DNA from: a virus
Length of the DNA: 10,630 bases
UHGV virus genome: UHGV-1631556
Reading direction: 5' to 3' (one strand)
The notes under the pieces: generated by a model
The model's database searches: none
What the model was told of the DNA's origin: nothing
Seen by the model: the letters and a program-made list of their open reading frames with translations, nothing else
Position numbers and translations under genes: made by a program
Shown: one piece after another, positions 6,917 to 7,494 of the stretch
Layout: each line of letters starts with the position of its first letter
How positions within the stretch are numbered: the stretch's first letter is position 1

Positions 6917-7494
6917 TGCGCTTTACCTCCCGTCGCCTCGTTGTACAGTTTCATGGCGTGCTGTGCCATCGCGTGCGCCTCCGTCGGTGCAGGGCGGACA
7001 TCACGTCCGGTTCCCGGCTGTGGTACATGCTGCATACGGGCAGCCAGCCCGCCTTTCTGGCTCATGCCACCCGCCAGAGCCGCTTTCATCACGGCACTGG
7101 CCTGTTTCACACTCATGCGGGTGTTGAAGGCCAGCTCTGCGGCAAGGGCCGGATTTTTTGCCGCATACGGCGTGGCGAAGATGGCTGCGCAGCGATGACG
7201 TTCACTGGCACGGGCCTTTTCTTCGTCATCGTCGTCTGTTGCGTTTTCATCGTCGTCGTTATCGTCATCATCCGCACGGGAGAGCGCCTTACGGCTTTCG
7301 CGGCGGTTTTCGTCGTCATCCGCCTGCCCGTCGTCGTCGTTATCGTCGTCATCCGCACGGGAGCGCGCCTTACGGCTTTCGCGGCGGTCCTCGTCATCCT
7401 CCGCATTCTCCCCGTCGCGTTTGTCCTCCGGATCATCATCCATTCGCGAACGACCGCCCATACCTACCAGGTGCATGAAAGAAAATTTACCCAT
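6913..7494 (-). CDS. Scaffolding protein, lambda Nu3-like C-terminal domain with a highly acidic Asp-rich repeat N-terminal region
   Basis: AAGGAGA with a 6-nt spacer before ATG 7492-7494. C-terminal ...ERHRCAAIFATPYAAKNPALAAELAFNTRMSVKQASAVMKAAL resembles the lambda C/Nu3 C-terminus as I recall it. N-terminal ~80 aa are roughly 45% D/E with two 27-aa repeats. Confidence 0.7.
   Translation of the reverse strand: MGKFSFMHLVGMGGRSRMDDDPEDKRDGENAEDDEDRRESRKARSRADDDDNDDDGQADDDENRRESRKALSRADDDDNDDDENATDDDDEEKARASERHRCAAIFATPYAAKNPALAAELAFNTRMSVKQASAVMKAALAGGMSQKGGLAARMQHVPQPGTGRDVRPAPTEAHAMAQHAMKLYNEATGGKAQ
7250..7404 (-). repeat. Imperfect tandem direct duplication, 81-bp period, in frame, inside the scaffold gene
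   Basis: Copy 1 ~7250-7323 and copy 2 ~7331-7404; anchor ATCCGCACGG occurs at 7270 and 7351. Encodes RRESRKARSRADDDDNDDDGQADDDEN and RRESRKALSRADDDDNDDDENATDDDD. A few substitutions and small indels separate the copies. Confidence 0.85.

What the first reader, a model, noticed from the sequence alone, without database searches (positions are those of the whole stretch)
7250..7404. In-frame 81-bp tandem duplication creating an extremely acidic repeat in the scaffold
Two near-identical 27-codon units encode RRESRKA(R/L)SRADDDDNDDD... inside an N-terminal region that is roughly 45% Asp/Glu, far more acidic than I recall for lambda Nu3. The near-identity suggests a recent duplication. Such repeats are length-variable hotspots, and the acidic tract could affect scaffold-capsid or scaffold-DNA charge interactions. 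On the plus strand it produces a spurious Arg-rich ORF.
Basis: seen in the sequence. Interest (0 to 1): 0.45.

Follow-up and report, generated by a model that had tools for sequence, protein, structure and literature searches.

The report
Old tandem repeat in phage scaffold
An E. coli prophage gene that most likely encodes the head scaffold carries a real in-frame 81-base duplication in its acidic, disordered front half, but the acidity is normal for this protein family and the repeat is an old, occasionally lost length variant, so the finding is ordinary.

Summary
TRF finds a period-81 repeat at 7250-7404, 1.9 copies, no indels. The copies are 68/74 nt identical and in frame in the minus-strand ORF 6913-7494 (193 aa). 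The repeat scores far above codon-shuffled controls.

The gene lies between an S49 prohead protease and gpD/gpE-like genes. Its helical, basic C-terminal half is remotely homologous to lambda Nu3 (hhalign E 4e-6), so "scaffold" is a reasonable call. Unlike Nu3, it is a separate ORF, not nested in the protease gene.

- **Acidity:** it does not come from the duplication. In 209 family members outside Escherichia the tract has median length 96 aa and net charge -20. The window (88 aa, -22) is typical.
- **Age:** the duplication is not recent. The copies differ by 8%, and prophage lineages 5-8% diverged share the two-copy state.
- **Length variation:** this is supported. A single-copy allele occurs in three assemblies, one almost identical to the window across 7.4 kb, and looks like a recent deletion. 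Other lineages carry independent repeats.

The likely role, by analogy with the P22 scaffold, is a disordered acidic arm that aids scaffold exit. This is inferred, not shown. Low interest.

The parts
6913..7494 (-). Gene for a 193-aa protein (stop codon included). Candidate head scaffold, member of phrog_6382, annotated 'hypothetical protein' in all public records seen.
   Evidence: ORF and translation. phrog_6382 E 2e-33 over the full length, no Pfam family. Third-codon-position excess of substitutions in this frame. Exact protein on 43 E. coli contigs.
7331..7404 (-). Repeat copy 1 (aa 31-55, AEDDEDRRESRKARSRADDDDNDDD)
   Evidence: Register search with offset 81, 68/74 nt identical to copy 2. 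TRF.
7250..7323 (-). Repeat copy 2 (aa 58-82, ADDDENRRESRKALSRADDDDNDDD). It carries the window-specific R44L-type change (CGC>CTC).
   Evidence: Relatives L001, L002, L003 and L010 have Arg at this position.
7219..7443 (-). Acidic low-complexity tract, aa 18-92. It is 52% Asp+Glu and 17% Lys+Arg, net charge -26, with basic and acidic blocks alternating. Predicted disordered.
   Evidence: Composition, and charge-segregation kappa 0.34 against 0.21 +/- 0.05 for shuffles. AF2 pLDDT 45-57 with no stable secondary structure for aa 1-87.
7468..7479 (-). Conserved N-terminal motif F-x-H-L (aa 6-9, FMHL; family consensus SFAHLLG). Role unknown.
   Evidence: F6, H8 and L9 are invariant in alignments A2 and A4. 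The motif is present in 118 of 147 distant representatives.
6916..7233 (-). Basic C-terminal half (aa 88-193; aa 93-193 have pI 10.5, net +9). Confident helices at aa 88-106, 115-124 and 129-143. Remote homologue of the C-terminal part of lambda Nu3/gpC.
   Evidence: hhalign E 5.5e-5, then E 4.1e-6 and prob 87% over 70 columns with larger profiles. Lambda Nu3 hits phrog_6382 (E 3.8e-4), both proteins hit phrog_17040, and this segment hits phrog_53 positions 346-465. AF2 pLDDT 90-95. Foldseek top hits in BFVD are prohead/S49 proteases.
7505..7510 (-). Shine-Dalgarno-like AAGGAG, 10 nt upstream of the ATG at 7494..7492. The ATG overlaps the protease stop codon (TAA 7489..7487) in the sequence ATGGGTAA.
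   Evidence: Read directly from the sequence.
7487..8347 (-). S49-family prohead protease (286 aa). It is the gpC-like catalytic part only and lacks a Nu3-like C-terminal extension.
   Evidence: Pfam Peptidase_S49 E 6.8e-26. phrog_53 positions 5-293 of 583.
6515..6916 (-). gpD-like head decoration protein
   Evidence: Pfam HDPD E 1.6e-17.
5404..6459 (-). gpE-like major capsid protein
   Evidence: Pfam Phage_cap_E E 2.9e-58.
7158..7478 (+). Antisense shadow ORF (106 aa, 26 Arg), not a gene
   Evidence: ORF list. Arg count. The substitution pattern fits the minus-strand frame.

Best explanation
**What it is.** The 81-bp repeat is a genuine, inherited in-frame tandem duplication. It lies in the disordered acidic N-terminal arm of a protein that is most likely the head scaffold of a prophage with a lambda-like head and a contractile tail.

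**Protein layout.** There is a short conserved N-terminal motif (FxHL), then an acidic tract of variable length with alternating basic and acidic blocks, then a conserved basic helical C-terminal domain homologous to the C-terminal part of lambda Nu3. In this group the scaffold is a separate gene translationally coupled to the S49 protease gene. In lambda, Nu3 is nested inside the protease gene.

**How the repeat behaves.** The acidic tract evolves by gain and loss of tandem units through slippage or unequal recombination. Only its bulk properties (disorder, length near 85-97 aa, net charge near -20) appear to be constrained. The 27-codon duplication arose before the Escherichia lineages of this prophage diverged and gives a tract of family-typical size. 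Recombination between the two copies occasionally deletes one unit, producing the rare 166-aa allele.

**Inferred function (not shown).** By analogy with the P22 scaffold, the basic C-terminal domain would bind the inner surface of the capsid shell. The acidic disordered arm would fill the procapsid interior and promote scaffold release or degradation when DNA enters.
For: **Repeat is real and in frame:**

**Independent assemblies:** the exact protein is on 43 contigs, and 8 complete genomes carry two copies.

**Scaffold assignment:**
- The order gpA-gpW-portal-S49-this gene-gpD-gpE is conserved in E. coli, Salmonella, Photorhabdus, Ameyamaea and Paraburkholderia, and in the isolated phages Serratia BZS1 and Citrobacter phiNP.
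- The C-terminal domain matches Nu3 in profile comparisons and in reciprocal PHROG hits.
- Foldseek hits are to prohead proteases.
- BZS1 virion mass spectrometry detected the decoration and capsid proteins but not p06, the homologue (PMC7556043).

**Disorder and charge dipole:**

**The tract is a family trait of variable length:**
- Among 129 homologues the tract length has SD 9.9 aa against 3.1 aa for the C-terminal part.
- Among 147 distant representatives the figures are 21.8 against 6.1.
- The window is typical and the single-copy allele sits at the 2nd percentile of length.
- Independent repeats of 9, 12, 15, 22 and 36 aa periods occur in other lineages.

**Old duplication, recent deletion:**
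- The copies are 8% diverged, and the two-copy state is shared by L002 and L010, which are 5-8% diverged from the window.
- L007 is nearly identical to the window over 913..8377 but carries one chimeric copy with a copy-1-type 5' end and a copy-2-type 3' end.

**P22 precedent:** an acidic disordered N-terminus needed for scaffold exit, with a basic coat-binding C-terminus (bioRxiv 10.1101/539965).
Against: - No experiment addresses this family. All public records call the protein hypothetical.
- The Nu3 homology is remote. BLASTP finds nothing, the best profile probability is 87%, and no solved structure matches.
- The absence of p06 from BZS1 virions is weak evidence. The portal was also not detected, and an Asp-rich tract yields few tryptic peptides.
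- Comparisons of orthologous and paralogous repeat units do not separate cleanly. In L002 the 5' ends of both copies are identical. Partial gene conversion, or spread of the two-copy allele by recombination, cannot be excluded.
- The single-copy alleles all come from short-read metagenome assemblies. L007 is a MEGAHIT k111 contig, and the copies share no exact stretch near 111 nt, so collapse there is unlikely but not excluded.
- The window's own portal gene is frameshifted. In this particular genome the scaffold gene may no longer be under selection.
Confidence: 0.7

Rival explanations
1. A recent duplication, possibly adaptive, that makes this scaffold unusually acidic.
For: The copies are 92% identical at the DNA level. 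The protein is far more acidic than lambda Nu3.
Against: - Prophages 5-8% diverged in flanking DNA share the same two-copy architecture.
- The copies differ by 8%, while window and L007 differ by about 0.1%.
- Acidity and tract length are typical for the family without reference to this repeat.
Confidence: 0.08
2. An assembly artefact: the true sequence has one copy, or some other number of copies.
For: Tandem repeats can be mis-assembled. Single-copy contigs exist.
Against: - Eight complete E. coli chromosomes from unrelated isolates carry two copies.
- The identical 193-aa protein is on record from 43 contigs.
- The copies carry six diagnostic differences, so reads can tell them apart.
Confidence: 0.02
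3. The protein is not a scaffold. It could instead be an acidic DNA-mimic or anti-defence protein, an internal head protein that is ejected, or an adaptor that brings the short S49 protease into the procapsid.
For: - High Asp/Glu content is a hallmark of DNA mimics.
- The 286-aa protease lacks the Nu3-like tail that lambda gpC carries, so something must target it to the procapsid.
- The conserved N-terminal FxHL motif has no assigned role.
Against: - The acidic tract is predicted disordered rather than forming a folded mimic surface.
- The C-terminal domain is homologous to the Nu3/gpC scaffold part.
- No other scaffold candidate lies between portal and capsid genes in any relative.
- An adaptor role would be compatible with being the scaffold.
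Confidence: 0.12
4. The repeat acts at the nucleic-acid level, as a regulatory RNA, a protein-binding site or a recombination site, rather than through the protein.
For: None found.
Against: - No Rfam family matches anywhere in the window.
- The period is exactly 27 codons.
- Substitutions in the tract favour third codon positions (for example 6/6/20 against L010).
- Other lineages have unrelated repeat units at the same place in the protein.
Confidence: 0.02

Closest known systems
Bacteriophage lambda Nu3 (scaffold; C-terminal part of the gpC protease reading frame)
   Same: - Same position in the head module, after the S49 protease and before the gpD and gpE homologues.
- The C-terminal helical region aligns with Nu3 residues about 112-182. 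Shared pattern: E-x-x-R-...-I-...-A-...-LA-...-M-[ST]-V-K-x-A-...-[IV]-[LM]-x-A-A, followed by L-x-R-[LM]-M.
- Reciprocal PHROG hits.
   Different: - It is a separate ORF in another frame that overlaps the protease stop by 8 nt. In lambda, Nu3 is an internal in-frame start within the protease gene.
- The protease here is 286 aa and has no Nu3-like tail.
- The N-terminal part is 42-52% Asp/Glu against 15% in Nu3.
- It carries the FxHL motif, which Nu3 lacks.
- BLASTP detects no similarity.
Bacteriophage P22 scaffolding protein gp8
   Same: The charge layout is the same: an acidic, disordered N-terminus and a basic helical C-terminal domain. In P22 the C-terminal domain binds coat protein, and the acidic N-terminus stays mobile inside procapsids and is needed for scaffold exit (bioRxiv 10.1101/539965). 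Here aa 18-92 have net charge -26 and are disordered, and aa 93-193 have net charge +9 and are helical.
   Different: - Sequence or fold homology was not tested.
- P22 gp8 is 303 aa with a long helical middle part and is recycled rather than proteolysed.
- This head module encodes a protease, so degradation as in lambda is more likely (inference).
phrog_6382 (PHROGs family, function unknown), including Serratia phage vB_SspM_BZS1 p06 and Citrobacter phage phiNP_023
   Same: Full-length match to the PHROG, E 2e-33. The phage proteins have the same architecture and gene position at 41% identity.
   Different: The phage proteins are 199-200 aa. Their acidic tracts have a different sequence and lack the 27-aa RRESRKARSRADDDDNDDD repeat.
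Length-polymorphic tandem repeats in low-complexity coding tracts (slippage or unequal recombination)
   Same: Head-to-tail in-frame units, copy number 1 or 2 among nearly identical genomes, and a chimeric unit in the deletion allele.
   Different: The unit is long (81 bp), only 1 or 2 copies were seen, and the two-copy state is stable in most genomes. Nothing suggests phase-variation-like behaviour.

Membership tests
Lambda Nu3-type head scaffold | Gene lies in the head module between the prohead protease and the decoration/major capsid genes | tested here: met
   S49 protease 7487..8347, this gene 6913..7494, HDPD 6515..6916, Phage_cap_E 5404..6459. The same order holds in all relatives examined.
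Lambda Nu3-type head scaffold | Sequence homology to the Nu3/gpC C-terminal region | tested here: met
   hhalign E 5.5e-5 and prob 66% against a single Nu3 sequence. E 4.1e-6 and prob 87% over 70 columns with a 148-sequence family profile against a Nu3 profile. Lambda Nu3 hits phrog_6382 at E 3.8e-4, and both proteins hit phrog_17040. The homology is remote: BLASTP finds nothing.
Lambda Nu3-type head scaffold | Encoded in frame within the 3' part of the protease gene, sharing its C-terminus | tested here: not met
   It is a separate ORF in a different frame with an 8-nt overlap (ATGGGTAA). In distant relatives a gap of 2-28 nt separates the genes. The protease is only 286 aa.
Lambda Nu3-type head scaffold | Present in procapsids, removed or degraded before or during DNA packaging, absent from virions | not testable with these tools
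   The only hint is that the homologue p06 was not among the 13 proteins detected in Serratia phage BZS1 virions. The portal and protease were also not detected (PMC7556043).
Lambda Nu3-type head scaffold | Self-association, and binding to the major capsid protein and portal | not testable with these tools
   For lambda, Nu3-Nu3, Nu3-E, Nu3-B and Nu3-C interactions are reported (PMC3224144). Nothing is available for this family.
phrog_6382 | Significant full-length match to the family profile | tested here: met
   E 2e-33, residues 4-191 against profile positions 6-200 of 201.
P22-like 'electrostatic hairpin' scaffold (functional analogy only) | Acidic disordered N-terminus plus basic helical C-terminal domain | tested here: met
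   aa 18-92 have net charge -26 with pLDDT about 45-57. aa 93-193 have pI 10.5, with helices at pLDDT above 90.
P22-like 'electrostatic hairpin' scaffold (functional analogy only) | Sequence or structural homology to P22 gp8 | not tested
   No comparison with gp8 was run. A Foldseek search of the PDB gave no significant hit of any kind.
Tandem-repeat length polymorphism in a coding low-complexity tract | In-frame head-to-tail copies beyond what composition explains | tested here: met
   Period 81, no indels. Score 56 against a maximum of 20 in 1000 codon shuffles.
Tandem-repeat length polymorphism in a coding low-complexity tract | Copy number differs between otherwise near-identical genomes | tested here: met
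   L007 has about 8 substitutions against the window in 913..7282 and none in 7349..8377, yet carries one copy. Two further assemblies (L005, L008) carry one copy. Caveat: all three are short-read assemblies.

The most novel reading that the evidence does not exclude
The tract may be a charge-and-length 'budget' under stabilising selection. If so, the repeat unit is not merely acidic filler. It is a basic-acidic diblock (RRESRKARSR followed by ADDDDNDDD), and the number of blocks would set multivalent electrostatic self-association of scaffold molecules into the procapsid core, with effects on capsid size or scaffold exit. Duplication would then be the usual way a lineage restores a shortened tract. 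Copy number (1 versus 2) would measurably change assembly efficiency or the amount of DNA packaged. Three observations are compatible with this but do not show it. Charge segregation exceeds shuffled controls (kappa 0.34 against 0.21 +/- 0.05). The family keeps a narrow range of length and charge despite unrelated tract sequences. Alternating K/R and D/E blocks recur in distant members.
Probability: 0.12. Interest if true: 0.45.

Novelty: new member of a known kind. Interest (0 to 1): 0.2.

Why it matters
The practical gain is in annotation. A widespread protein family of at least 398 clusters at 50% identity is labelled 'hypothetical' in E. coli, Salmonella, Providencia, Photorhabdus, Burkholderiales and Acetobacteraceae prophages, and in phages BZS1 and phiNP. 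It can now be read as a stand-alone Nu3-like scaffold with an acidic disordered arm.

This also shows that the nested protease/scaffold arrangement of lambda has an unnested counterpart. It gives a natural series of tract lengths (61 to more than 110 aa, including a clean 1-copy/2-copy pair) for testing what the acidic arm of a scaffold does.

The repeat itself is an ordinary length polymorphism with no sign of special biology. Some relatives of this prophage carry LT-II enterotoxin genes, so the head module has some marginal epidemiological interest.

Tried and rejected
- **Nucleotide and tblastn searches of the INPHARED phage collection.** Searches with the gene, the whole window and the protein found nothing. 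I found the relatives BZS1 and phiNP only through the protease.
- **BLASTP against lambda Nu3.** No alignment. Profile methods were needed.
- **PDB searches.** The sequence profile search and Foldseek gave no meaningful hit. The Pfam CDC45 hit (E 0.0054, far below the curated cut-off) and the cytochrome bc1 subunit 6 hit are low-complexity acidic matches, and I dismissed them.
- **Programmed frameshift fusing protease to scaffold at ATGGGTAA.** Rejected. The overlap is not conserved: L004 has a 4-nt overlap and distant relatives have intergenic gaps of 2-28 nt.
- **Similarity between the protease C-terminus (AFSFLL) and the scaffold N-terminus (FSFMHL).** It is only loosely kept in relatives (AF..LL against FAHLLG), so I made no claim.
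- **Dating the duplication by comparing orthologous and paralogous units.** Inconclusive. The mismatch counts overlap, and L002 shows homogenised 5' ends.
- **Mosaic breakpoint at the repeat.** Rejected. Divergence between window and L007 starts at about 8378 in the portal gene, not at the repeat.
- **Fused protease-scaffold forms.** The best 150 hits of the representative-library search were all stand-alone proteins, apart from one 1454-aa hit I did not examine.
- **Rfam scan of the window.** No matches.
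Full report
**1. The observation**

Tandem Repeats Finder reports a period-81 array at 7250..7404 with 1.9 copies, 91% matches, no indels and score 268.

A register search on the coding (minus) strand places copy 1 at 7331..7404 and copy 2 at 7250..7323. They are exactly 81 nt apart and 68 of 74 nt are identical. Of the six differences, three are synonymous and three change the protein (E32D, D36N, R44L).

The array is in frame in the minus-strand ORF 6913..7494 (193 aa). It encodes AEDDEDRRESRKARSRADDDDNDDD and then ADDDENRRESRKALSRADDDDNDDD.

The tract is low in complexity, so I shuffled its codons 1000 times. The best self-match score was 11.3 +/- 1.8 with a maximum of 20, against 56 observed. 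Composition does not produce this repeat.

- aa 1-92 are 42% Asp+Glu.
- aa 18-92 are 52% Asp+Glu, with net charge -26.
- The N-terminal part of lambda Nu3 is 15% Asp+Glu.

The plus-strand Arg-rich ORF (7158..7478, 26 Arg in 106 aa) exists. It is an antisense shadow. Substitutions between relatives concentrate on third codon positions of the minus-strand frame, both in the tract and in the C-terminal half.

**2. Genomic setting**

On the minus strand the window carries a lambda-type head module followed by contractile-tail genes:
- the end of a gpA-like terminase
- gpW
- a lambda-family portal
- an S49 prohead protease (7487..8347)
- the acidic protein
- a gpD-like decoration protein (6515..6916)
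- a gpE-like major capsid protein (5404..6459)
- a tail sheath further on

The acidic gene starts at an ATG that overlaps the protease stop codon (ATGGGTAA). An AAGGAG lies 10 nt upstream.

The source is evidently an Escherichia coli prophage. The exact protein is on record from 43 E. coli contigs. Eight of 5426 complete E. coli genomes carry the region at 94-99% identity. No deposited phage genome matches at the nucleotide level.

**3. What the protein is**

Pfam has no family for it. PHROGs places it in phrog_6382, function unknown (E 2e-33).

Alignments of close and distant homologues show three parts:
- a short conserved N-terminal motif (consensus SFAHLLG, with F6, H8 and L9 invariant)
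- an acidic tract with interspersed Lys/Arg blocks, whose sequence and length are not conserved
- a conserved C-terminal half (consensus ERxRCAAIF...PxLAAxLAFNTxMS...LxxRM)

AlphaFold2 with a 28-sequence alignment predicts no stable structure for aa 1-87 (pLDDT 45-57). It predicts three confident helices at 88-106, 115-124 and 129-143 (pLDDT 90-95). The C-terminal half is basic: aa 93-193 have pI 10.5 and net charge +9.

The C-terminal half is a remote homologue of the C-terminal part of lambda Nu3/gpC:
- BLASTP finds nothing.
- hhalign of the family alignment against lambda Nu3 gives E 5.5e-5.
- A 148-sequence profile of the C-terminal half against a small Nu3 profile gives probability 87% and E 4.1e-6 over 70 columns.
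- Lambda Nu3 itself hits phrog_6382 (E 3.8e-4).
- Both proteins hit phrog_17040.
- The window's C-terminal half hits the Nu3-bearing part of phrog_53.
- The best Foldseek hits among predicted viral structures are prohead/S49 proteases.
- No solved structure matches.

Synteny is strict. The order gpA-gpW-portal-S49 protease (about 285 aa)-this protein (about 190-200 aa)-gpD-gpE holds in Salmonella, Photorhabdus, Ameyamaea and Paraburkholderia prophages. It also holds in two isolated temperate myoviruses, Serratia phage vB_SspM_BZS1 (p06) and Citrobacter phage phiNP (023), where the gene is annotated 'hypothetical protein'.

In BZS1, virion mass spectrometry detected the decoration and capsid proteins and tail proteins but not p06 (PMC7556043). 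That fits a scaffold, but weakly, because the portal was not detected either.

I therefore accept 'scaffold' as the best reading, with one clear difference from lambda. The scaffold here is a stand-alone gene, and the protease has no Nu3-like tail.

**4. Is the acidity or the repeat unusual?**

Neither is unusual for the family.
- Among 129 homologues from the first search, the tract between the FxHL and ExxRC motifs spans 61-117 aa (median 96, SD 9.9). The C-terminal part has SD 3.1. Asp+Glu is 37-49% and net charge is -13 to -29.
- An exhaustive phmmer search with the C-terminal half alone found 398 clusters at E <= 1e-3. In the 150 best hits listed, nearly all proteins are 150-276 aa with the domain at the C-terminus.
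- In 147 of those representatives the N-terminal region has SD 21.8 aa, against 6.1 for the C-terminal region.
- In 209 members outside the Escherichia clade, the tract median is 96 aa (IQR 85-97) and net charge is -20 (IQR -22 to -16).
- The window's two-copy tract (88 aa, -22) falls inside both ranges. The single-copy allele (61 aa, -16) is at the 2nd percentile of length.

The duplication therefore does not create an extreme protein. It yields a tract of normal size for the family.

Other lineages have their own unrelated repeats in the same tract:
- a 36-bp unit x 2.6 copies at 98% identity in E. coli A34 (L004)
- a 9-aa unit in a Salmonella protein
- units of 15, 22 and 36 aa in other members

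**5. Age and dynamics of the repeat**

Close relatives range from 166 to 193 aa.

The two-copy architecture, with the same boundaries, occurs in the window and in L001, L002, L003 and L010. Of these, L002 and L010 differ from the window by 5.7% and 7% in the surrounding DNA. The two copies in the window differ by 8%. The duplication is therefore at least about as old as this prophage clade, not recent.

Unit-by-unit comparison does not cleanly separate orthologous from paralogous pairs. In L002 the 5' ends of the two copies are identical, so some gene conversion is possible.

A 166-aa allele lacking exactly 27 codons occurs in three independent assemblies: a Logan contig, a 12.8-kb MEGAHIT k111 contig and a SPAdes contig. 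The MEGAHIT contig (L007) differs from the window by eight substitutions in 913..7282 and by none in 7349..8377. Its single unit is a chimera, with a copy-1-type 5' end and a copy-2-type 3' end.

With backgrounds this similar and copies 8% apart, the single-copy allele must be a recent deletion by recombination or slippage between the copies. It cannot be the ancestor of the duplication. The single-copy form is rare: its cluster is on record from 3 contigs, whereas the window's exact two-copy allele alone is on 43 contigs and its 59-member cluster spans several hundred. No three-copy allele was seen.

I cannot fully exclude assembly collapse for the short-read contigs. It is unlikely for a k=111 contig, because the copies share no exact stretch approaching 111 nt.

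**6. How it probably works (inference)**

The charge layout is an acidic disordered N-terminal arm and a basic helical C-terminal domain. The P22 scaffolding protein has the same layout. In P22 the basic C-terminal helix-turn-helix binds coat protein. The acidic N-terminal 40 residues stay mobile inside procapsids and are needed for scaffold exit during DNA packaging (bioRxiv 10.1101/539965).

By analogy, three things would follow here:
- The Nu3-like C-terminal domain anchors the protein to the inside of the gpE-like shell.
- The acidic arm points inward.
- The arm helps expel or expose the scaffold to the S49 protease when DNA enters.

For such a role only length, disorder and charge need to be kept. 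That would explain why the tract tolerates in-frame duplications and deletions and why its sequence drifts while its bulk properties stay within a narrow range.

The charges in the tract are more segregated into blocks than in shuffled versions (kappa 0.34 against 0.21 +/- 0.05, 0.6% of shuffles reach it). This leaves room for a more specific role of the basic-acidic diblock in scaffold self-association. Nothing here tests that.

The function of the conserved FxHL motif is unknown.

**7. Verdict**

The scaffold assignment is reasonable and is new as an annotation for this family.

The parts of the interpretation that made the finding look interesting do not hold. The duplication is not recent, and it is not the source of the extreme acidity. 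What remains is an ordinary, old, occasionally collapsing tandem repeat in the disordered arm of a Nu3-like scaffold.

Novelty: a new member of a known kind. Interest: low.

Noticed in passing
window 8344..9947 (minus strand): The portal gene is broken in this window. Compared with the intact 1665-bp portal of E. coli strain 'numer 3' (L001), there is a 23-bp deletion near 9265 and a 14-bp deletion near 9477. This leaves two ORFs (8344..9267 and 9402..9947), and both hit Phage_portal_2. The prophage in the source genome is probably defective.
   Followed up: partly
L001 18072..19217 (NZ_CP141863.1): In a 97.5%-identical relative of this prophage, genes annotated as heat-labile enterotoxin IIA B chain and enterotoxin A family protein lie between the holin and endolysin genes. 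This head module therefore belongs to an LT-II-converting prophage type in at least some strains. The window does not reach that region.
   Followed up: no
window 8378..9900 compared with L001 and L007: There is a mosaic boundary in the portal gene. The window and L007 are identical across the protease gene, and divergence starts abruptly at about 8378 (the 7331..9878 alignment, which includes that identical stretch, averages about 8% mismatch). 145 of the 180 mismatches against L001 fall in 8500..9900.
   Followed up: partly
window 7487..7530 and 7468..7494; L004, L011-L014: The protease C-terminus (..PDEAFSFLLKE..) loosely resembles the scaffold N-terminal motif (KFSFMHLVG). Relatives keep AF..LL against FAHLLG. 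This may be chance, or it may hint at a shared binding site.
   Followed up: partly
proteins P0016, P0019, P0020 (close homologues): Some E. coli alleles of this gene are frameshifted. P0020 switches after the second repeat into the +1 frame, which corresponds to window ORF 7113..7439. P0016 and P0019 lose the C-terminal 40 residues. These suggest decaying copies in some genomes.
   Followed up: no
L004 2807..2901 (NZ_CP028741.1): A diverged E. coli relative (60% aa identity) has an independent 36-bp x 2.6 tandem repeat, 98% identical, encoding DDDDQKESKAEN units. It sits in the same acidic tract.
   Followed up: yes
L014 6176..6862: In the Paraburkholderia relative, a GIY-YIG domain gene, probably a homing endonuclease, is inserted between the major capsid gene and the head-tail attachment gene.
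   Followed up: no
window 3603..3643: A small 21-bp x 2.1 tandem repeat (81% matches) lies inside the tail sheath gene 2592..4094.
   Followed up: no
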